A DNA stretch of 64,000 nt from the human T2T-CHM13v2.0 reference genome, Homo sapiens: assembly GCF_009914755.1 (NCBI RefSeq), contig NC_060925.1; one strand, given 5' to 3'. The position numbers were made by a program, and so were the translations under genes. Numbering within the stretch: the first letter of the stretch is position 1; each line of letters starts with the position of its first letter. The notes beneath the pieces are model-generated. The model was not told the DNA's origin. It saw only the letters and a program-made list of their open reading frames with translations, and made no database searches. Below are positions 14,400 to 61,095 of this stretch, in pieces.

Positions 14400-14960
14400 T
14401 TGAGGAGAAAAATATATTTTTTCTCAAACCTCATAAATTCTTGGTTGGAATAAACCCCTTTAACAAAACACTTAACAAAATTAAAAACAACAGCTTTTTC
14501 ATATACACATGGGAAATACCCAGAAAATGAGTACTTGTCAAGGAGGTGGCTTTAAATTCCAGTTAATGTAGCATTTTCAACAAAGAACAGTAAATTTTTA
14601 GAGAATTGACAAGACACAGGACAAGGACTTTGAGTCTCTAGGGGTGGCAACTTGTAGGAAGACAAATAACTGGCAGATAAAGGCTAATGCATAAGTCAGT
14701 GACTGTCAATTCCTCTGGTGCCATCTCTGGACTGTTCAGGGCTAAAGTCTTCAGTGGTCAGCCTTTGCTGTCCCTGATAGAAAGACGATGAGGGAAGCAG
14801 GATACTTCTCCCTTTGTATTAATAAATCTATGTCCTGATTTTTAGGCAAATAGAGGAAGGGCAGAGCACTTCCTTGCACTTGCTTCTTCTTAATTGCCTT
14901 CAGCTCAACAATCCTTATGCTGAAGAAGCATATTTTTGGGGGGCATGTTCTGTTCTTCCA
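14400..14960 (-). mobile_element. ERV1-class LTR (MER34/MER39-like)
   Basis: Ends with aattgccttcagctcaacaatccttatgctgaagaagcatatttttggggggcatgttctg, typical of the reverse 5' end of MER34-group LTRs. Confidence 0.6.
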
Positions 14961-15655: not shown

Positions 15656-15834
15656 TCCCTGATAGAAACAGGGTGGCAGGAGCAGGATACCTTCTCTCTT
15701 TGTAAATCCGTATCTTGATTTTTAGACAAATAGAGGGAAAGCAAAGCACTTTCTTGCACTTGATTCTTCTTAATTGCCTTCAGCTCAATGATACTTATGC
15801 TAAAGAAGCATATTTTTGGGGTCATATTCTGTTC
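15656..15834 (-). mobile_element. Second, partial copy of the same MER34-like LTR segment
   Basis: Direct repeat of 14771-14955 (tccctgatagaaa...ttcttcttaattgccttcagctcaa...gaagcatatttttgggg...ttctgttc). Confidence 0.7.
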
Positions 15835-18899: not shown

Positions 18900-22720
<3,821 letters not shown>

Positions 22721-51355: not shown

Positions 51356-53637
51356 TATAATGCATTGAACTTTATTGAACAGATTGGCATCAATTGCTTA
51401 TTTCAACCTTGAAAATGAATCTTCTCAGAATTCTACCCTATTGAGTCCATATCAAGTATGGTAGTGATAATAACATAGAGAAATAAGACTCTTGACAGTA
51501 ATCACAGTAATCACACAATATGTCTCAAATACCAGCTATTGATATATTGGTAAGGGTCATATGAGGCCTTGAGTGTGGAACATATGCTACTCTGAGGGTG
51601 AAAAAAAAAGCTCACAGTATTGCAGTCTACTAAAATGGATAGGTCAAATATACAGAAAGATTAAGAGTTAAAAGTACCCATGAAAAAGTAGATAGTTCTA
51701 GCTCTATTTGATACAATAAATATTTTAATGTACCTGAACTTTTGCCCTAGTTCAGTCAAAATAATAACCAAATTTTTCATTTTATGTTTCATATAAATAT
51801 TTAAGAGTGTAAATATACTTGTCTGTACTTTTATAAATCAGAAATTGTATCACTCTAGATGTGTTCATATATGGATCTGTTTTTAGATGAATATCAAGAT
51901 ATTACAGGTGTACTTGCAAGTTCACAAGTAGCTAAAATGAAAAGGATTTTGGACAGTGATTTCCTGTCCTTTGATTACAAGCATCACTTATTACATTGCA
52001 TTAAAAGAAGTATGAAAATTTCTATTCTGTCCAGTCATTTTTGGCTAATTAATATACCTTTCATACAGACACAGGTTTCAAATTTTGGAAACCAGAAGTT
52101 ATAAACATGTCTGCAACTAAAGGACATGTTTTTGTATAATGCATATCACTGTTATCTATCTGCATATATAATATATGCCAAAATACATACATACATATGC
52201 AGACATTAATGAGCATAACTTTGACATAAGACAAATTAACAACTTGTAAATTCTGCTATGATTATTAAGTGCACACATTATCTTAAAAAGCGTTATTGAA
52301 AACATTATTATTTTTTGTCTTGCATATTCTCAAAGATGTTAAAACTACATCTCATTATGTAACTAGACATGATTAATATTTTTTACATTTCAAAATTCTA
52401 AAATTGGAACTCACTATCTTTGGATAAGTACACTTAGGTTTAGCCTCAGATTTGCTATTTAAATATGTTATATTGAGAAAATAGCTTAATATTTCTGAAA
52501 CACAATGTCCTTCTATGTAAATTCAGAAGAAACCATTATTTGTAAATTTTGTGGCTTATATTATAGGTTCTTTATCCATTTAATTCTCATTAAATAACTT
52601 TTTCATTTACCAGATTTTTATTGAATGTGTGTTATATACTAGTTTCTATATTAGGTGTTGTAAAATTGAAGAAGACAGACATGATCCTTGGAATGATCTT
52701 TTGAATCAGTTAGGTGAAGTAAACATGTATTGATGCCCATATATTCAGCATTTTGTGCTTCTTTTTCATTCCTAAAAACACTTAGATTTTTTATCAGAGA
52801 ACATTGCCTCCAACTTTGTAATTTGAGATTGACCTTCACACTCCTTAGGCCCCCAAACTTGAGATTTTTGGTCAATGGTTAACAAAAAGATGCGCCCTCT
52901 CATTCACTTTCTCTTTCTGAGTCTTAACTAAGAATAATGTGGTTGGTCTAAAAATTGTTGATGACTGACTTTTGATACTAAAAGATACTGAAAGATAAAG
53001 CAAGGAAATGTAATAAAACCAGTCCTTGGTGACATTGTTGAACCAGTGAATCAACCAACTCTGAATTTGGCCTTACTTCTGATATTTTCTTTTACATAAA
53101 CCAATATATTCCCTTATTTTTAATGGCAAGTTATCTTGATTTTCTAATACATGCTATAATAAAAGTCTAAACGTATATACAAAGCTTTATCCAGAATGCA
53201 TAGGAATAAATAAAGAAAATAAAGCTTATCCGTAGCATATTTAGTAAGTGACTGAGCTGAGATTAACATCCAAGTCTGTTTGACTTTAAAATTTCAGAAT
53301 TAAAGATATGATTTCTATAAAAGTGCAAAACACTATAAAATTTGAAGTGGTAAGATAATCCCAAACATTTAGTCTCTGAGTCTGAGACATGGCTACAAGA
53401 TTTATTCACATTGCCTTTTTATTTGGCTGGCAAGTGACTAGTAGGTCCTAAAGTTGTGAGTACTATGGAAATGAGATTCTCTTTGAATTGGAGTTTGGCA
53501 AATATATTTTGATAGAAGTGAAGACTTGACCATAATTGATGCTGAATACATTGCTTTATGGGGCATTGAGGATTTTGTTGTTTTAACTTGCCTTCACTAT
53601 GTTTCATAAATGATGACTGCTAGTGTTAAAAATAAAT

Positions 53638-53930
53638 GTTCTGGCATGGTGGCTCATGCCTGTAATCTCAGCACTTTGAAAGGCTGAGGTGGATGGATCA
53701 CTTGAGTCCAGGAGTTTGAGACTAGCTTGGGCAACATGGCAAAACCCTGCTCTACTAAAAACACAAAAATTAGCCAGGTATGATGGCGCATGCCTGTAAT
53801 CCTAGCCACTTGGGAAGCTGAGGCACGGGATTCACTTGAGCCCAGGAGGTTGAGCTTGCAGTGAGCTGAGATCACACCACTGCCGTCCAGCCTGGGTGAC
53901 AGAGTAAGACTCTGTCTCAAAAAAGAAAAA
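53638..53930 (+). mobile_element. Alu SINE, AluJb-like
   Basis: ggcatggtggctcatgcctgtaatctcagcactttg...cttgagcccaggaggttgag...gggtgacagagtaagactctgtctcaaaaaag. Confidence 0.94.
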
Positions 53931-54971
53931 CGTGTTATGACACTGTAACAATGAAATATGATTAAGCAAAAAATGCAAATAAAAACGTACAATGACTTCT
54001 GTGACTATTTCCCCTTCTTTTTTACCCTCTTGTCTTCTTCCAGTACTTTCTCTTCTTTCATTTCAGACACATAGGCAATGACATGCAGGCAATGGCATGT
54101 GCAAATACCTGGACACCCCAAAAGGATGTGACAAGGTTGGTTGCAAAGGATATTGTGTCATCACCGAGTGATATTGTAAAGGCCTGTAGATATTTTAGAT
54201 TTCCTGGTTTCTAGAAATTACTTTGAAATTTAACCTTTGGGCTGATGGTTCCACCATACAACAGCTTAATTTAAACTTTTTTGAAGTGTAGAGTTTCACT
54301 TTCTTTTGGGAACCCATTTTAGCACCACTTCCAGGCGTGTCATTTTTTTTATCAGAATATTTTGAAATATAAATTTTTCCTCTTCCTAACCCACCTAACT
54401 TTGCATTATCCCACACTCTCACAAGGATCATTACACTTCCTCTTCAATTTTATTAAGATCTTCAGGGTTTCACTCCCTTCCTGGAGTATCTTTTTTTCTT
54501 AATTCTGTCTATACCAACCACTTAAAATCCAATTTCTCAAGTATTCTGATAATTTGCCATCTTGATATTTCACTTAATTCTTCACTAAGTTACAATTTTG
54601 GAAAAGGCTATGCATCCACTATTTCTCTTTTTGCTCCTCTGTTTTAGATGGTTAACTGTTATAGCCTCTGACTTCGGCTTTTCTACTGATTTTTAGGGAG
54701 CTTTTAAGATTATGTCTGTTCTTATGTATGACTTATTTTCCCTTTTCAGACTTTTCCACATTCTCTAATAGCTGTTTCTTCATTCAGAGTTTATGAATAG
54801 CTGTTTTTTGTGCCTTGAACTGAAAATGTTCATCTATCTGTATATCAAAACAGTAGTATGCGTTGAGATGATGTGAAGTTGCATCCTCAAATGCTGAAGT
54901 ATTTATTAACTAAACTCATTGTAATAATTACTAATAAATTTTTCTACAAAATTTAATCATTTTGGCACTAA

Positions 54972-55181
54972 TTGTGGACAGGTAGAACATTTATCTGCTG
55001 AAGTATCTCATTATAGGATGTTAACAGAAAAATTAATATATCAGAAGGGCACATTGATGTCTCAACTCTTCCGGGCTTTTAAAAAATCTGTAAGTTTTAG
55101 TACAGTCAGTGTGATAGGACTAAAAGCATTTTGGACATGAATGTAATGCTGTAAACAGTGATTAAATGGTCACTTGGAGTT
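54972..55181 (+). repeat. Inverted repeat arm A (partner A' at 56284-56493)
   Basis: Its reverse complement aligns ungapped to 56284-56493 over 210 bp with 7 mismatches (manual alignment). Confidence 0.97.
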
Positions 55182-55389
55182 TAACATCCTGTTCTACATG
55201 GAGACCAAGGTAGGAGTGAAGTGGTCGCTAAAAGTGGGATAGCTTATATTAAAACTGCCCTTGTATTAAAAAATGGTATTCTTGGCCAGACATGGACATC
55301 AGCAATTAGCACTGATTTTTCACACAAGGACAGATTCATTTCCACGAATGCTCTAAACCAAGAAAAGCCAAGTCTGGTGGAAAAATGTG

Positions 55390-55625
55390 GTAGAGGATTT
55401 TCTCAGCACAAAACATTGGTAGATCTGGAGTCAAGAGATCTAGATTCAAAATTTGAGCTCCCTTTACATCAACTATATAACTTTGAACAAAGTAATTTCT
55501 CTGTGCCTCCCTTTTCTCCTATGATAGATGAAAATTATGGTTCTCTTCCTCCCAGAGTTAGAGGTATTAAAAAATAACATATAGAGGATTCTACTACAAT
55601 GAACGTCATGAATGGTAGATTCATG
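55390..55625 (+). mobile_element. MIR SINE
   Basis: tctggagtcaagagatctagattcaaaatttgagctcc...taactttgaacaaagtaatttctctgtgcctcccttttctc...gttagaggtattaaaaaataac. Confidence 0.7.
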
Positions 55626-55864
55626 ATTTTTATTATGTGTTAATTTTATTTCCCACCCACCCTTCCTCCACTACTGATTCAAATCTATAATAATGTGTTT
55701 TCTTCACCATTAATGTTTTGTGTGACTTTCATGAACACAACTTACTGGGTATCTCTATAAACATCCATTTACAAACTTTTTGTCTAACACTTGATATGTG
55801 TATATACATTGATTGATTGACTTTCACAAATCAAATATACATTGATTGATTGACTTTTTTCATC

Positions 55865-56143
55865 TCCCTCTTCATAATTTCCCTGAGAAGTTTTACCCAA
55901 CATTGCTGCTTAGTTCTCATCCAACAGATAGAAAATGGAGACCAGATTCTACGCCTGGATTCCATGACATTAAAGTGGACTGCTGTTCTGATCTATGGAA
56001 GCCTGTCTGAGCTACAATCTGGTAGATGTATCATCATTCCCTCCTGGCCATGCTAACATCCTAAAATTGAACTATTTGAATGTTAATAATAGAGTAAATT
56101 TTTCTATACCCTATGGAAAGTAGAGATTTGAGCACCTGGCCTA
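55865..56143 (+). repeat. Inverted repeat arm B (partner B' at 57372-57651)
   Basis: Aligns to the reverse complement of 57372-57651. Perfect shared blocks tgacattaaagtggactgctgttct and tatcatcattccctcctggccatgc; roughly 80% identity by eye. Confidence 0.95.
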
Positions 56144-56283
56144 CCATCATGCTCTACCTCCCCCACTTCCTTTTCAGAACATTCAGCATGATTTATGTGT
56201 GGGGTTATACTGGCAATGTCTGACAAATGTGATTGAATTATTCTTTTCTTCTTTATATTTGTTTCAAACGGAAATGGTTTTGG

Positions 56284-56493
56284 AACTCCAAGTGACCATT
56301 TAATCACTGTTTACAGCATTACATTCATGTCCAAAGTGCTTTTAGTCCTATTACACTGACTGTACTGAAACTTACAGATTTTTTAAAAGCACAGAAGAGT
56401 TGAGACATCAATGTGCCCTTCTGATACATTAATTTTTCTGTTAACATCCTATAATGAGATACTTCAACAGATAAATGTTCTACCTGTCCACAA
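56284..56493 (-). repeat. Inverted repeat arm A'
   Basis: aactccaagtgaccatttaatcactg...gttctacctgtccacaa is the reverse complement of 54972-55181. Confidence 0.97.
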
Positions 56494-57371
56494 GCAAAAT
56501 TGCTTCTCAACTATTTACCTCTCTTTAACTCATCTTCAATAAAAGTTTGATATCACAGATTGGTCATATGTCGTCTTCATCCAGTTAACACAAATTGTAT
56601 ATACACTTCAGATAGGAAACATAATGAAAGCTTACACTTTTCCAAAAACATCTCCAGAAATCCTTTGACTCTAGTAATAATGTCTTGATTGTTTCTAAGG
56701 CCATTTTCTGGTTCTATAATATATCCCTGCCACTGCTCTGTGGATTTTTGAAAATAGTATACTTGATCTAAACATTTTTAAAACAACCGAACAGTAAGTT
56801 TAGATTCAAAGCTGCAGAGTGACTATTTTTGTGTCCATCTGTACTTGTCATTTCACATCAAAGCAGAAATCTGTGAAAATATTCTATTTTGTTTCTATTA
56901 TTGTCACACATAATGATTGCTCAAAAGTGTTCCTCAAAGCCATTTTATTTTAGACCATCCCTGGTTTCCTCAGTGAAATAGCACAATGGAAATTCTGCTA
57001 TATTTTAACAACCTTTTTTTTCAAAACCCACACTTAAACATGAAGCCTAAGAATTTAAATTTCTGTTTAAACATTCTCTCTTGAGCCATAAGCTGCTGTG
57101 CTGTTTTCCTATTCATTCTCAGTATTTCCTCTCTTTTTGTCCTTCTCTACACATCTAGTACTGCATTTTCTACCTCACCTCCCATGCCTCCTTTCCAAGC
57201 CTAGACTCCAGGGCTAGTCATTCCAATCATAATTTTCTTCATAGCAGAGACTCTTTCATGCTAAGAAATTCTTATCAACCTTACTGTGACAGATATTTAT
57301 GAAATTCTTTAACTACTGTTTCTCCTACTGAGGCTGGGTTTGTGGATGGACATCATGAAACTGGATGAATT

Positions 57372-57651
57372 TAGGCCAGGAGCTCAAATCTCTATTTTCA
57401 ATAGATTATAGAAAAAAAATTATCCCAATATTGATACTCAATACATTCAATTTCAGGAGTCTGGCATGGCCAGGAGGGAATGATGATAAATCTGCTAGAT
57501 TGTCAGCAGACAGGCTTTCATATATGAGAACAGCAGTCCACTTTAATGTCAGGGAATCCAGGTATATGATCTGGTCTTCAGTTCCTATCTGTTCAATAGG
57601 AACTAGACAGCAATATAGCGTCGAATTTCTCAGGGAAATTGGGAAGAGGGA
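57372..57651 (-). repeat. Inverted repeat arm B'
   Basis: taggccaggagctcaaatctcta...ctcagggaaattgggaagaggga is a diverged reverse complement of 55865-56143. Confidence 0.95.
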
Positions 57652-57859
57652 ACTAGGAAGAAACAACACAGACTGTATTATTCAGCTTTAAATCTTTGGT
57701 ATCTAAATTAATGTCATGAATTGAATGTGTTCAATAATGTCATGAATTTTATGCGTTCAATAAAGTTAGTGAATAAAATTAGACAAGTTTATTCTATTTA
57801 ATATCCATGCCATACAACCCAATTTCATCTTCTGCTGCTCATCAATGCTTTTATTAATC

Positions 57860-59225
57860 TCTAGTTGATTACTGAACATATTCCAAAGAACTGCTACTAC
57901 AAATGGCTCCTACTCTCTCTAAGTGCTCCTATTCAGCTCGTTTTAAATAGTCTTTCTTTCCATTACTCCAATGAAGCAATTCTGGTCAAGGTCAGTCAAT
58001 AACTTCTATATTCCCCAATTTAATGGTTTTTCCTCCACAATATTAGCTCTGTTGCAGACTCCACTTCAGACTGTATGCTGCTCCTCTTCAAACAAATCTC
58101 CCAATATTTGGTTTTATGCAAAGTTTTGGTCACAAGACACCTTCTCCTCTCTATTTGTATTATTGACTTCGTTAATCTCAGCCAGTGCCCTGGTTAATGC
58201 ATTTATAAACTAGTATCTATCAAACTTCTCTATCTAGTTCTTATTGTTCCCCTGAGCCCCAACCTTATATACGTAACTAGCAATTTGACATCACCACTCA
58301 GATTTTAACAGAAATATCAAAATAATCCAAACCCCAACATGACATTTAAATATCCTTTAAAGCTATCTCATCACCATCTCCTCCTTCCTATAACCGTTAT
58401 CCACCCAGTTTGTTTAAGCAAAACTCCTTGATTTCTCCCTTTGTATCATTTCTCAAGTTCAACCTCAAATATATTTCTCCAACTTTTCTACTTCTCTGCA
58501 ATGCCACTGCCTCCAACCAAGTTCAAACCACATTATTATATTTTGTCTGTAATTTCCTTCTAAATAATCTTCTTGTTTTTATTTTTCCCCCTTTAAAGCT
58601 GGTCTTCTACACAGCATCCTGATCAACTGTTTAAGGACATGATCATGTTACTTGGCTACTTCAACCTTTGAATGACTTTCGTTTACATTTAGAGGAAAAA
58701 TCCAAACTCTCTATTCAGACCTCTAAGGTCTTAAATGAGGTGGCCCATCCCTACTTCTCTGATCTCATATCAAAATCTTCTCTGCCTTCTCTCACTATCC
58801 TAAACTAGTATCACCCTTTTCCTTTAAACATACTCAACTAGTCCACCTATAAGCCTTTGCACTGGGTATTTTCTCTTCCTGTATATGTTTTTCATTGATT
58901 CTTTTTATGCCTTAGTCTCTAAATGTCTTAGCTAATCATCGCCTGTGAACCAGAATACATACTTTACTCAAGGGCTTGAACTTATACTCGAGGGCTTGAA
59001 CTTGTATTATTAGATGAACATCCATTACCAAATGAAATTATAGTTTTATTTGTTTGACTTTTAAAAAAGCCTCTATGCCAGCCATTATCAGCCTGAAGCT
59101 CCAATAGTATGAAAAGCTAATTGAACCAAGAATTTTATCTCTCTCTCTTATTGCTCTAAGTCTAGTATCTAAAAGAATAGTAACTGGCTCACAGTGAGAA
59201 CTCAATACTGTTTACCTTGTCAATG
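57860..59225 (+). mobile_element. L2 LINE remnant
   Basis: Pyrimidine-rich L2-like text (cttctctgcaatgccactgcc; gatcatgttacttggctacttcaacctttgaatgac; gcctttgcactgg). Confidence 0.6.
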
Positions 59226-59263
59226 ACTGAAAGAGTCCTTGTAATATTTTTGTACCTACCTAT

Positions 59264-59624
59264 TGATATGGTTTGGCTGTGTCCCCACCCAAATCTTATC
59301 CTGAATTGTAGCTCCCATAATCCCCATGTGTCATGGGAGATACCTGGTGGGAGGTTATTGAATCATGGGAGTGGGCTTTCCTGTGCTGTTCTTGTGATAG
59401 TGAATAAGTCTCACAAGATCTGATGGTTTCATAAAGGGCAGTTCCCCTACACACTCTCTTGCCTGCCACCACGTAAGACGTGCCTTTGCTCCTCCTTCAC
59501 CTTCTGCCATGATTGTGAGGTCTTCCCAGCCATGTGGAACTGTGAGTCCATTAAGCCTCTTTTTCTATATAAATTATCCAGTCTCAGGTATTTCTTCACA
59601 GCACTATGAAAATGGACTAATATA
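59264..59624 (+). mobile_element. MaLR solo LTR, THE1C-like
   Basis: tgatatggtttggctgtgtccccacccaaatc...ccagccatgtggaactgtgagtccatta...aaaatggactaata. Flanks cctat/tctat. Confidence 0.93.
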
Positions 59625-59732
59625 TCTATCTTCTTCAGTAGACAAAAAAACTACTTGTGAATAAGGACTAAGTACTATTTTTACAATGGCACCTGATATA
59701 TATTAGATATTCAAACAAGTTTCAAAACATCA

Positions 59733-60136
59733 ATGCCCAAGTGCTTGGGAGCCCACCCCTTGCATCAGTGTGCCCTAGATGTGGGACATGGAGTCAAAGG
59801 AGATTATTTTGGAGCTTTAAGATTTAATTACTGCCATACTAGGCTTTGAACTTGTATGGGGCTTGTTGCCCCTTTCTTTGGGCTGATTTCTCCCCCTTTG
59901 AATGTGGTATTTACTCAATGCCTATACTCCCATTGTGTCTTGGAAGTAACTAACTTGCTTTTAATTTTACAGGCTCATAGGTGGAAGGAACTTGCCTTGT
60001 CTCAGATGACACTTTGGACTTTGGACTTCTGAATTAATGCTGGAATGAGTTAAGACTTTGTGGGGGCCTATTGGGAAAGGATGATTGCATTTTGCAATGT
60101 GAGAAAAACATGAGATTTGGGGGGCCAGGGGTAGGA
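59733..60136 (+). mobile_element. MST-int (MaLR internal) 3' portion with polypurine tract
   Basis: ttgggagcccaccccttgcatcagtgtgccc...ttttacaggctcataggtggaagg...gagatttggggggccaggggtagga directly upstream of the LTR. Confidence 0.88.
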
Positions 60137-60554
60137 TGATATGGTTTGGATCTGTCTCCCCACTCAAATCTCATTTTCAATTGTCATCCCCAGTTTTGGA
60201 GTGAGGCCTGGTGGAAGGTGATTGCATCATGGGGATGGATCCCTCATGAATGGTTTAGCACCATCCTCTCGGTGCTGTCTCATGATAATGAGTTCTCATG
60301 AGATCTGGTTGTTTAAGAGTGTATGGCACCTCCATCCCCCACCCCTCCCATCTTGGTCCTGCTCCTGCCATTTAAGATGCTGGCTCTCGCTTCTCCTTCT
60401 GCTATGAGTAAAAGCTCGTGAGGCCTTCCCAGTAGCAGATGCTGTCATGCTTCCTATACAGCCTGCTGAACCGTGAGCCAACTAAACTTATTTTCTTTAT
60501 AAATTTACCAGTCTCAGGTATTTCTTTATAGCAGCATGAGAATAAACTAATACA
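60137..60554 (+). mobile_element. MaLR 3' LTR, MSTA-like
   Basis: tgatatggtttggatctgtctccccac...gaatggtttagcaccatcc...cagtctcaggtatttctttatagcag...aactaataca. Confidence 0.92.
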
Positions 60555-60805
60555 ATAAATAAATGCAATAATTATATAGTCATGGAAATCTTTGAAAAGG
60601 GAGAAATGTTTGGATTGTTTCTCAGAAAATTAGTAGAATTTCACCAAAAGAGGAAGTGGAAAAAGACGTTTCAGGAAGAAGAAATGGCAAATAAAAAAGG
60701 CCTGAGGATATGAAAGAACATGGCTTTGTGGGGATAATTAAGGCATTTAGAATGCCTGAGGAATTGCAATAAATACCTCATATTTCTTTTAACCAAGTCC
60801 TTATT

Positions 60806-61095
60806 TGTTATAGACTGTTTCTGTCCCCCCAAAATTTATAGTTTAAATTCTAATCACCATTGTGATGGTATTAGGAGGTGGAACTTTTGGGAAGTAATTA
60901 GGTCATGAGCGTTGGAGGCCTCATGAAATGAACTAGTGCCCCTACAAAAAAGACCCCAGAGAGGTGTGTCTGTGTTTCCCCTATGGAAGGATAACTGTTC
61001 TTGGAATTCAAACCTTCAGAACCATGACAAATTGTTGTTGCTTATAACCAACCCAGTCTATGATACTTTGTTATAACGACCTGAACTAAGATACA
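60806..61095 (+). mobile_element. MaLR LTR, MLT1A-like, internally deleted
   Basis: gtgatggtattaggaggtgg...aattaggtcatgag...cccagtctatgatactttgttata...aactaagata. Confidence 0.8.

What the first reader, a model, noticed from the sequence alone, without database searches (positions are those of the whole stretch)
54972..57651. Interleaved double inverted-repeat system A-B-A'-B' (overlapping invertible segments / pseudoknot topology)
Seen directly: A (54972-55181) pairs with A' (56284-56493) and B (55865-56143) pairs with B' (57372-57651), and the pairs cross rather than nest. I do not recognise either unit as an interspersed repeat. Inference at DNA level: recombination between A and A' flips the 1.1-kb spacer and turns B/B' into direct repeats, while B/B' recombination would do the same to A/A', so several orientations and deletion products are reachable. 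B/B' could be an old direct duplication later inverted by the event that created A/A'. Inference at RNA level: a read-through transcript could form either of two competing 200-280 bp duplexes (ADAR, Dicer or MDA5 substrates). This is the best candidate for an undescribed element here, but no function is shown.
Basis: partly seen in the sequence, partly recalled or inferred. Interest (0 to 1): 0.8.

Follow-up and report, generated by a model that had tools for sequence, protein, structure and literature searches.

The report
Two interleaved local inverted duplications
Two short stretches of a human chromosome 1 gene desert were each copied backwards about a kilobase away, at very different times, leaving two crossing inverted-repeat pairs that look like a mutational relic and not a working element.

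Summary
The structure is real. A (54972-55181) and A' (56284-56493) are 210 nt, 7 mismatches, no indels. B (55865-56150) and B' (57365-57651) are about 285 nt and 80% identical. The order is A-B-A'-B'.

Neither unit is a dispersed repeat. In the whole 3.1-Gb assembly each matches only itself and its partner. A 25-nt core of B with up to 3 mismatches hits only B and B'. A same-length L1-like control gave 4643 candidates.

The pairs differ about seven-fold in divergence (K2P 0.034 against 0.23, Fisher p=1.6e-8), so they come from two events. Single-event models that give crossing repeats predict A next to B and A' next to B'. Here 683 and 871 nt lie between them.

Local GC skew marks A and B' as the inverted, derived copies and the spacers as not flipped. 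This is weak evidence.

Best reading: two successive local reverse-complement copy events with no shown function. Identical tracts are short (52 and 25 nt at most), so flipping by homologous recombination should be rare. There is no Rfam hit, no Pfam hit and no annotated transcript. Outgroup and pangenome checks could not be run.

The parts
54972..55181 (+). Arm A, 210 nt. It is the younger pair's left copy and probably the derived (inverted) copy.
   Evidence: 203 of 210 bases identical to the reverse complement of 56284-56493, with no indels. GC skew is +0.25, while 0 of 338 flanking 210-nt windows reach +0.25.
55182..55864 (.). Spacer s1, 683 nt. It holds a MIR-like stretch at about 55427-55600 (recognised from a recalled consensus, not tested). 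It also holds a 23-nt exact direct repeat (55802-55824 and 55835-55857) that ends 8 nt before B.
   Evidence: Sequence. for the 23-nt repeat; the MIR-like stretch finds only itself in the own-genome search. GC skew -0.08.
55865..56150 (+). Arm B, 286 nt. It is the older pair's left copy and probably the source copy.
   Evidence: 80% identical to the reverse complement of 57365-57651. GC skew -0.13, like its surroundings; only B and B' in the genome.
56151..56283 (.). Spacer s2, 133 nt, between B and A'.
   Evidence: No match to anything else in the locus.
56284..56493 (-). Arm A', 210 nt. It is the younger pair's right copy and probably the source copy.
   Evidence: GC skew -0.24, like its surroundings.
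56494..57364 (.). Spacer s3, 871 nt. Positions 56685-56914 match one chromosome 6 place at 68-76%, which suggests an old low-copy repeat lying wholly inside the spacer.
   Evidence: GC skew -0.25 (z -4.3).
57365..57651 (-). Arm B', 287 nt. It is the older pair's right copy and probably the derived (inverted) copy.
   Evidence: GC skew is +0.13, while 0 of 307 flanking 287-nt windows reach +0.13.

Best explanation
This is a non-functional structural relic of two separate local reverse-complement copy events in a gene desert. The original sequence read L - s1 - B - s2 - A' - s3 - R.

In the older event (pair divergence K about 0.23), the 286-nt stretch B was copied backwards and placed about 1.0 kb to its right, giving B'. 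In the much younger event (K about 0.034, roughly the human-orangutan level of divergence, a recalled figure), the 210-nt stretch A' was copied backwards and placed about 1.1 kb to its left, giving A. A' lies only 133 nt from B. Because the two copies were thrown in opposite directions across each other's source, the pairs cross.

The most likely mechanism for each event is a replication or repair template switch: the type '1-4-3-2 / 3-2-1-4' of the four-point model, which creates an inverted repeat without flipping the spacer, acting here at roughly ten times the usual length and distance.

Shown: the arms, their uniqueness in the genome, their unequal ages, and the misfit to single-event geometry.

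Inferred: which copy is derived, that the spacers were not inverted, and the molecular mechanism.
For: Both pairs are real and statistically strong.

Uniqueness. A and B each find only self and partner in 3.1 Gb, with 2 first-look candidates each. The whole of 54400-58200 adds only one 133-nt chromosome 6 match, inside s3. The 25-nt core shared by B and B', searched with up to 3 mismatches, hits 1 forward and 1 reverse site, namely B and B'; the reversed-pattern control gives 0 and 0. As a positive control, a 286-nt stretch of a masked repeat at 22300-22585 gives 4643 candidates.

Two ages. There are 7 mismatches in 210 bases against 56 in 285, Fisher p=1.6e-8, K2P 0.034 against 0.23.

Direction of copying. 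All 10 non-arm segments between 53935 and 59256 have negative GC skew, as do B and A'. Only A (+0.25) and B' (+0.13) are positive. None of 338 (210-nt) or 307 (287-nt) overlapping context windows reach those values. The B-pair spacer s2+A'+s3 has skew -0.22, like its context.

Precedent. The four-point model holds an event type that creates an inverted repeat only, making up 31% of its high-confidence human-chimp events (PMC5453318, passages).

No sign of function. There is no Rfam hit in the arms, 0 of 38 open frames above a Pfam cut-off, and no annotated gene or element here (hub table).
Against: No outgroup or population data could be consulted, so the order of events, the derived copies and the orientation of the spacers are not observed.

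The skew argument assumes a uniform, old strand bias. The windows overlap, so there are only about 20 independent ones. The A-pair spacer has a skew of only -0.086 against about -0.4 in flank windows of the same size, so its orientation is poorly determined.

I read the four junctions in the alignment and saw no convincing microhomology or target-site duplication. That does not favour a microhomology-primed switch over end joining.

Known short-range template switches involve tens of bases, not 210-286 nt copied over 1.1-1.2 kb.

Two independent events overlapping within 2.7 kb is a coincidence that I could not put a number on.

Gene conversion could have kept A/A' young-looking, which would make the age difference partly apparent.
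Confidence: 0.6

Rival explanations
1. The younger event was a 1.3-kb inversion made by a staggered break at one end and a clean break at the other (the one-sided case in Ranz et al.). The 210-nt overhang was filled in on both sides, leaving A and A' flanking an inverted 55182-56283. Before that event B and B' were direct repeats.
For: The staggered-break model gives inverted duplications flanking an inverted segment. [quoted passage not shown] This matches a 210-nt pair with sharp, indel-free edges. The lack of microhomology at the junctions (my reading) fits end joining. The skew of the 1102-nt spacer is weak (-0.086), so inversion is not excluded.
Against: If the spacer had been flipped, B would have had positive skew before the event, like B', and neither B copy would have matched its context. 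In the present orientation B and s1 carry the sign of the context. A direct 286-nt duplication placed about 1.5-1.75 kb away would itself need a non-tandem copy mechanism, so nothing is saved. No outgroup was available.
Confidence: 0.2
2. One event made both pairs. This would be an inversion with staggered breaks at both ends, or a '3-1-4-2' template switch, both of which give a - rc(b) - rc(mid) - rc(a) - b, a crossing pattern. Later insertions separated the arms, and gene conversion kept A/A' alike.
For: The crossing order is exactly what these models predict. Six Drosophila inversions carry duplications of both breakpoint regions (PMC1885836). [quoted passage not shown]
Against: The models put A directly against B and A' directly against B'. 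Here 683 and 871 nt lie between them, and s1 holds a MIR-like element (recalled identification) of a very old family, so it is unlikely to be a later insertion. The divergences differ about seven-fold (p=1.6e-8). The inner segments share the skew of the outer flanks and do not oppose it.
Confidence: 0.04
3. A and B are ordinary dispersed repeats (transposable element fragments, or the terminal inverted repeats of an old DNA transposon) that landed here independently.
For: The own-genome DNA search cannot see very old families: the MIR-like stretch 55420-55600 found only itself. An ancient, highly decayed family therefore cannot be excluded by BLAST-type calls alone. No Dfam or RepeatMasker library was available.
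Against: Two copies at 80% or 97% identity imply a family young enough for the search to see other members, yet it saw none. A real repeat of the same length gave 4643 candidates. The 25-nt B core with up to 3 mismatches occurs nowhere else in 3.1 Gb. There is no transposase or reverse-transcriptase remnant: 0 of 38 open frames above a Pfam cut-off.
Confidence: 0.03
4. The arrangement is functional. Either it is a natural two-pair 'flip then delete' DNA switch, or it is a locus whose transcript folds into alternative long double-stranded RNAs (ADAR, Dicer or MDA5 substrates).
For: The topology equals that of the engineered FLEX/DIO switch, with two heterotypic antiparallel site pairs giving inversion and then excision (PMC9099413, passages). 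Both RNA duplexes are predicted to be very stable and about equal.
Against: There is no annotated transcript or regulatory element (hub table) and no Rfam family. Any inverted repeat gives such a fold, so the energies carry no evidence of function. Identical tracts of at most 52 and 25 nt and arms of 210-286 bp are far below the repeats of known human NAHR inversions. B/B' has decayed to 80%, as expected for neutral sequence. No site-specific recombinase is known to act on such arms.
Confidence: 0.05
5. The structure is an assembly artefact, or a rearrangement private to the CHM13 cell line.
For: None found. Only one assembly was examined.
Against: Fold-back chimeras give perfect palindromes. 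These arms differ at 7 of 210 and 56 of 285 positions with ordinary substitution patterns, which needs millions of years. The region is unique euchromatin with no other copies that could be confused with it.
Confidence: 0.01

Closest known systems
Template-switch mutations of the four-point model, type 1-4-3-2 / 3-2-1-4 (Loytynoja and Goldman 2017, PMC5453318; passages read)
   Same: [quoted passage not shown] This matches the inferred history of both pairs.
   Different: Described events are short, with copied fragments of 14 bp and up, typically tens of bases and very local. Here the copies are 210 and 286 nt, placed 1.1-1.2 kb away, and there are two events of different age. No ancestral sequence was available to show the switch.
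Inversions with inverted duplications from staggered breaks (Ranz et al. 2007, PMC1885836; passages read), and the equivalent '3-1-4-2' template switch
   Same: They give crossing pairs of inverted duplications of unique, non-repetitive sequence, of similar size (median 321 bp).
   Different: They predict that the two pairs are of equal age and abut each other at the breakpoints. Here K is 0.034 against 0.23, and 683 and 871 nt separate the arms.
Inverted repeats that mediate recurrent human inversions by NAHR (Giner-Delgado et al. 2019, PMC6748972, passages; Aguado et al. 2014, PMC3961182, search listing only)
   Same: An inverted pair of over 90% identity (A/A', 96.7%) flanks a kilobase-scale segment.
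   Different: The arms are 210 bp with a longest identical tract of 52 nt, against 654 bp to 24.2 kb in that set. No evidence of two orientations was obtainable.
Genome-wide catalogue of intrachromosomal repeat pairs of at least 200 bp and at least 80% identity in GRCh37, GRCh38 and T2T-CHM13 (Fernandez-Luna et al. 2024, PMC11794170; abstract and sections 6, 7 and 12 read)
   Same: Both pairs meet its thresholds. T2T-CHM13 has 627,791 inverted pairs, and 4,418 rows fall in the class 'Other', outside SINE, LINE, LTR, segmental duplication and satellite.
   Different: The catalogue does not describe interleaving. Its held supplement does not list this locus: 0 occurrences of the four coordinate prefixes.
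FLEX / DIO switch (described in PMC9099413, passages)
   Same: The topology is identical: two different antiparallel site pairs are interleaved, so that inversion across one pair makes the other pair direct and allows excision.
   Different: It is engineered, with 34-bp sites and a dedicated recombinase. Here there is no recombinase, no sites, and arms that diverge by 3% and 20%.

Membership tests
Dispersed repeat / transposable element copies | Further copies elsewhere in the genome | tested here: not met
   only self and partner; the 25-nt B core with up to 3 mismatches hits B and B' only, and the control gives 0 and 0; a real repeat gives 4643 candidates. Caveat: very old families are invisible to the BLAST-type search.
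Dispersed repeat / transposable element copies | Coding remnants (transposase, reverse transcriptase) or terminal structure with target-site duplication | tested here: not met
   0 of 38 open frames of at least 45 aa in 53900-59300 reach a Pfam cut-off. The four weak hits have E 0.04-0.09. Reading the flanks, I saw only a 3-nt TAA on both sides of A.
Single-event double inverted duplication (staggered-break inversion, or 3-1-4-2 template switch) | Crossing order a - rc(b) ... rc(a) - b | tested here: met
   A < B < A' < B'.
Single-event double inverted duplication (staggered-break inversion, or 3-1-4-2 template switch) | The two pairs abut at both junctions | tested here: not met
   683 nt lie between A and B, and 871 nt between A' and B'.
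Single-event double inverted duplication (staggered-break inversion, or 3-1-4-2 template switch) | Both pairs are of the same age | tested here: not met
   K2P 0.034 against 0.23, Fisher p=1.6e-8.
Single-event double inverted duplication (staggered-break inversion, or 3-1-4-2 template switch) | The middle segment is inverted relative to the ancestral state | not testable with these tools
   No primate or other mammalian genomes are held. The skew proxy argues against inversion.
Template-switch inverted copy (four-point type 1-4-3-2 / 3-2-1-4) | A reverse-complement copy of nearby sequence, with the spacer not inverted | tested here: inconclusive
   The copies are shown. The spacer orientation is inferred only from GC skew.
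Template-switch inverted copy (four-point type 1-4-3-2 / 3-2-1-4) | Short range, with copied fragments of tens of bases | tested here: not met
   The copies are 210 and 286 nt, placed 1103 and 1214 nt from their sources. The described events are short.
NAHR-competent inverted repeats of polymorphic human inversions | Identity above 90% over at least about 650 bp | tested here: not met
   A/A' is 96.7% identical but only 210 bp, with a longest identical tract of 52 nt. B/B' is 80% identical with a longest tract of 25 nt.
NAHR-competent inverted repeats of polymorphic human inversions | Both orientations seen among haplotypes or species | not testable with these tools
   One held supplement was searched by coordinate prefix. 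None of the 10 passages shown, out of 30 occurrences, lies on chromosome 1 at this place. The file was cut when stored and is not a full inversion list.
FLEX-like two-pair recombination switch | Two heterotypic antiparallel pairs, interleaved | tested here: met
   A and B do not match each other in the sensitive BLAST.
FLEX-like two-pair recombination switch | A dedicated recombinase and its recognition sites | not tested
   No search for sites was made, and no candidate recombinase is known. There is no coding remnant in the locus.
Long-hairpin double-stranded RNA locus | A stable long duplex in a single transcript | tested here: met
   This follows trivially from the inverted repeats.
Long-hairpin double-stranded RNA locus | Transcription across both arms, with editing or small RNAs | not testable with these tools
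   The hub table lists no transcript here. Rfam gives nothing in the arms.

The most novel reading that the evidence does not exclude
The locus is a small recurrent rearrangement hotspot. The old B/B' inverted repeat stalled replication and provoked a second kilobase-range template switch that threw A' across it. That produced a natural FLEX-like pair of crossing repeats which may still toggle or delete in some human or ape haplotypes, or give alternative long double-stranded RNAs if transcribed. It would be a mid-scale class of template-switch mutation, between the tens-of-bases events and FoSTeS/MMBIR.
Probability: 0.07. Interest if true: 0.55.

Novelty: new member of a known kind. Interest (0 to 1): 0.22.

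Why it matters
As it stands, this is a tidy example of how unique sequence acquires inverted repeats by local reverse-complement copying, and of how two such events can overlap to give a crossing topology. Such low-copy inverted pairs are already catalogued by the hundred thousand in human assemblies. These arms are short, and one pair has already decayed. If outgroup genomes confirmed two 200-300-nt copies thrown about 1 kb in opposite directions from one 629-nt core, the locus would document template switching at a scale between the described short-range events and kilobase-to-megabase rearrangements. It would also hint that an old inverted repeat can seed a new one. No bearing on a gene or a phenotype is visible.

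Tried and rejected

2. L1 twin priming. The start of the abstract of preprint 10.1101/2021.12.20.472354, seen in a search listing, says about 85% of human inversions under 2 kbp form this way. I rejected it here because twin priming does not duplicate sequence, and nothing in 54400-58200 behaves as L1 or any young repeat.

3. Extending the chromosome 6 paralogue to see whether it bridges a breakpoint. The match is confined to 56685-56914 inside s3, so it says nothing about the junctions.

4. Looking for microhomology, fold-back priming sites or target-site duplications at the four junctions, by reading the alignment. I saw only a 3-nt TAA around A and an imperfect 'ATTTTG' motif offset by 5 nt. 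I treat these as chance.

5. Pfam scan of open frames, including a 130-aa open frame at 55185-55577 and a 110-aa one over B'. Nothing was found.

6. Rfam. The only hit is one chance-level match outside the arms (58270-58324, E 0.9).

7. Locus look-ups in supplements. For PMC12350169, the exact prefix 7929 (T2T) and five guessed GRCh38 prefixes gave 30 occurrences, and none of the 10 passages shown is on chromosome 1 here. The GRCh38 offset was my recalled estimate, so that part is weak. For PMC11794170 there were 0 occurrences. The 14 supplement files of PMC6748972 were listed but not read. They cover only 45 inversions and could in principle bear on polymorphism.

8. PMC4777119 was opened for the FLEX description and gave only a reference-list entry.
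Full report
OBSERVATION

The repeat finder on 54000-58600 gives four inverted pairs and no direct family. One pair is 54972-55194 against 56271-56493 (223 nt, 94%). The other three pieces together tile 55865-56150 against 57365-57651.

A sensitive self-BLAST of 52000-61000 finds the same two pairs (E=2.7e-78 and 2.2e-65). It finds nothing else inside the structure.

The base-by-base alignment and the counts refine them:
- A/A' is 54972-55181 against 56284-56493: 210 nt, 7 mismatches (6 transitions, 1 transversion), no indel, sharp edges.
- B/B' is 285 aligned bases with 56 mismatches (30 transitions, 26 transversions) and two gap events, with fuzzy edges.
- The order is A, B, A', B', so the pairs cross.

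Within the whole 64-kb window, A/A' is the most similar of the 33 repeat pairs of at least 100 aligned bases listed from the self-BLAST (35 rows in all). Most of the others are about 300-nt multi-copy elements.

ARE THE UNITS DISPERSED REPEATS?

Searched against the whole 3.1-Gb assembly, A finds only A and A', and B finds only B and B', with two first-look candidates each. The whole of 54400-58200 adds a single 133-nt match on contig C6, at 76%, to 56685-56817 inside the third spacer.

I ran two controls because this tool warns that it skips common words:
- A MIR-like stretch between A and B (55420-55600; the identification rests on my recall of the MIR consensus) found only itself. So the search is blind to very old families.
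- A 286-nt piece of a masked repeat at 22300-22585 gave 4643 candidates, and the 40 that were scored are all at 93% or more. So it does see young and middle-aged families.

Two copies that are 80% or 97% alike would belong to a family of that visible kind, and none was seen.

To reach older relatives of B, I searched the 25-nt tract that is identical in B and B', allowing up to 3 mismatches. It occurs once forward and once in reverse, which are B and B', and the reversed-pattern control gives 0 and 0.

No open frame of at least 45 aa in 53900-59300 reaches a Pfam cut-off (0 of 38; four hits at E 0.04-0.09).

Both pairs are therefore local duplications of unique sequence. No Dfam library was available, so an extremely decayed family cannot be formally excluded.

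ONE EVENT OR TWO?

The pairs differ about seven-fold in divergence: K2P 0.034 for A/A' (7 of 210; 95% interval of the raw difference 1.3-6.9%) against 0.23 for B/B' (Fisher p=1.6e-8). By recalled primate divergence figures, A/A' is about as diverged as human and orangutan, and B/B' is several times older.

Two published single-event mechanisms do give crossing inverted pairs:
- Inversions from staggered breaks at both ends. [quoted passage not shown]
- The '3-1-4-2' template switch of the four-point model, which makes up 1% of events (PMC5453318, passages).

Both predict the layout a - rc(b) - rc(middle) - rc(a) - b, with A against B and A' against B', and equal ages. Here 683 nt (including the MIR-like element) separate A from B, and 871 nt separate A' from B'. 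The ages are unequal as well. I reject a single event unless later insertions and selective gene conversion are added.

WHICH COPIES ARE DERIVED, AND WERE THE SPACERS FLIPPED?

Without outgroup genomes, the only internal clue I found is strand composition.

From 53935 to 59256 every non-arm segment (10 of 10) has more C than G on the plus strand, and so do B (-0.13) and A' (-0.24). Only A (+0.25) and B' (+0.13) have the opposite sign.

Among overlapping windows of the same lengths outside the arms, 0 of 338 reach +0.25 and 0 of 307 reach +0.13, while 54% and 76% lie at or below the negative values. These windows overlap, so there are only about 20 independent ones.

The spacer of the old pair (s2+A'+s3) has skew -0.22, like its context. 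The spacer of the young pair has -0.086, which is the sign of the context but weak.

If the bias is older than the events, then B and A' are the originals. They lie 133 nt apart in one 629-nt core. A and B' are the reverse copies, thrown about 1.1 kb to the left and about 1.0 kb to the right, and neither spacer was inverted. This is an inference, not an observation.

MECHANISM

Each event then has the form of the four-point type '1-4-3-2 / 3-2-1-4', which creates an inverted repeat and leaves the spacer alone. That type makes up 31% of the high-confidence human-chimp events in PMC5453318. The scale here is larger: described events copy tens of bases over very short distances.

Reading the four junctions, I saw no convincing microhomology or target-site duplication. 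Capture of a copied fragment by end joining, or the one-sided staggered-break inversion, remains open. I give the latter 0.2 for the younger event.

Whether the old repeat provoked the second event, or the overlap is chance, cannot be settled. I could not count how many such local non-repeat pairs the genome holds. The catalogue of PMC11794170 gives 627,791 inverted pairs of at least 200 bp and 80% identity in T2T-CHM13, with 4,418 rows in the class 'Other' at any distance.

DOES IT DO ANYTHING?

A flip across one pair would make the other pair direct, which is the topology of the engineered FLEX/DIO switch (PMC9099413, passages).

However, the longest perfectly identical tracts are 52 nt (A/A') and 25 nt (B/B'), and the arms are 210-286 bp. 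The inverted repeats behind 24 human NAHR inversions range from 654 bp to 24.2 kb at over 90% identity (PMC6748972, passages). Homologous flipping should therefore be rare.

As RNA, each pair would form a very stable duplex of nearly the same energy: -350.1 kcal/mol with 205 of 210 bases paired, and -350.2 with 245 of 286. A nested fold of 54972-57651 forms A:A' (205 pairs on the plus strand, 204 on the minus strand) and no B:B' pair. Any inverted repeat would behave this way.

The hub's table lists no transcript or functional element in the locus. Rfam gives only one chance-level hit, outside the arms. B/B' has decayed as neutral sequence would.

WHAT COULD NOT BE CHECKED

These items were out of reach:
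- orientation in other primates and in human haplotypes;
- Dfam annotation;
- expression, editing and small RNAs.

The look-ups of the locus in two held supplements were negative. One file was cut when stored, and part of that search relied on a guessed GRCh38 offset. The supplement files of PMC6748972 were listed but not read.

VERDICT

The feature is real and locus-specific. It is best read as two successive local reverse-complement copy events of very different age, whose products happen to interleave. It is a new example of a known kind of mutational product, with no evidence of function. Interest is low to modest, and would rise if outgroups or pangenomes showed toggling or a shared hotspot mechanism.

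Noticed in passing
window 57709-57763: A tandem duplication of a 26-nt unit, 2.1 copies, 89% matches. It starts 58 nt outside the outer edge of B'.
   Followed up: no
window 55802-55824 and 55835-55857: A 23-nt exact direct repeat with 10 nt between the copies, ending 8 nt before the outer edge of B. Together with the item above, both outer flanks of the old B/B' pair carry a small local duplication. The two are not in register with each other.
   Followed up: partly
window 53935-59256: There is a persistent excess of C over G (and of T over A) on the plus strand across about 5 kb. GC skew runs from -0.02 to -0.49 in every non-arm segment. The cause is unknown: an old element in one orientation, or a mutational strand bias.
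   Followed up: partly
window 56685-56914; L005 2872-3107: The only outside relative of the locus is a single place on contig C6 (9854472-9854606 at 76%; extended match of 238 aligned columns at 68%). This suggests an old low-copy repeat lying wholly inside spacer s3.
   Followed up: yes
window 14771-14955 and 15656-15834: Another local pair, this one direct: 186 aligned bases, 82% identical, 701 nt apart. I did not check whether it is a dispersed repeat.
   Followed up: no
window 55185-55577 (+): A 130-aa stop-free frame in AT-rich spacer s1. It has no Pfam match. By my rough estimate, about 0.2 frames of this length are expected by chance in the region.
   Followed up: partly
window 55427-55600: A MIR-like sequence in minus orientation between A and B. 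I recognised it from my recall of the MIR consensus and confirmed it with no tool. It found no relatives in the own-genome search, which served as the negative sensitivity control.
   Followed up: partly
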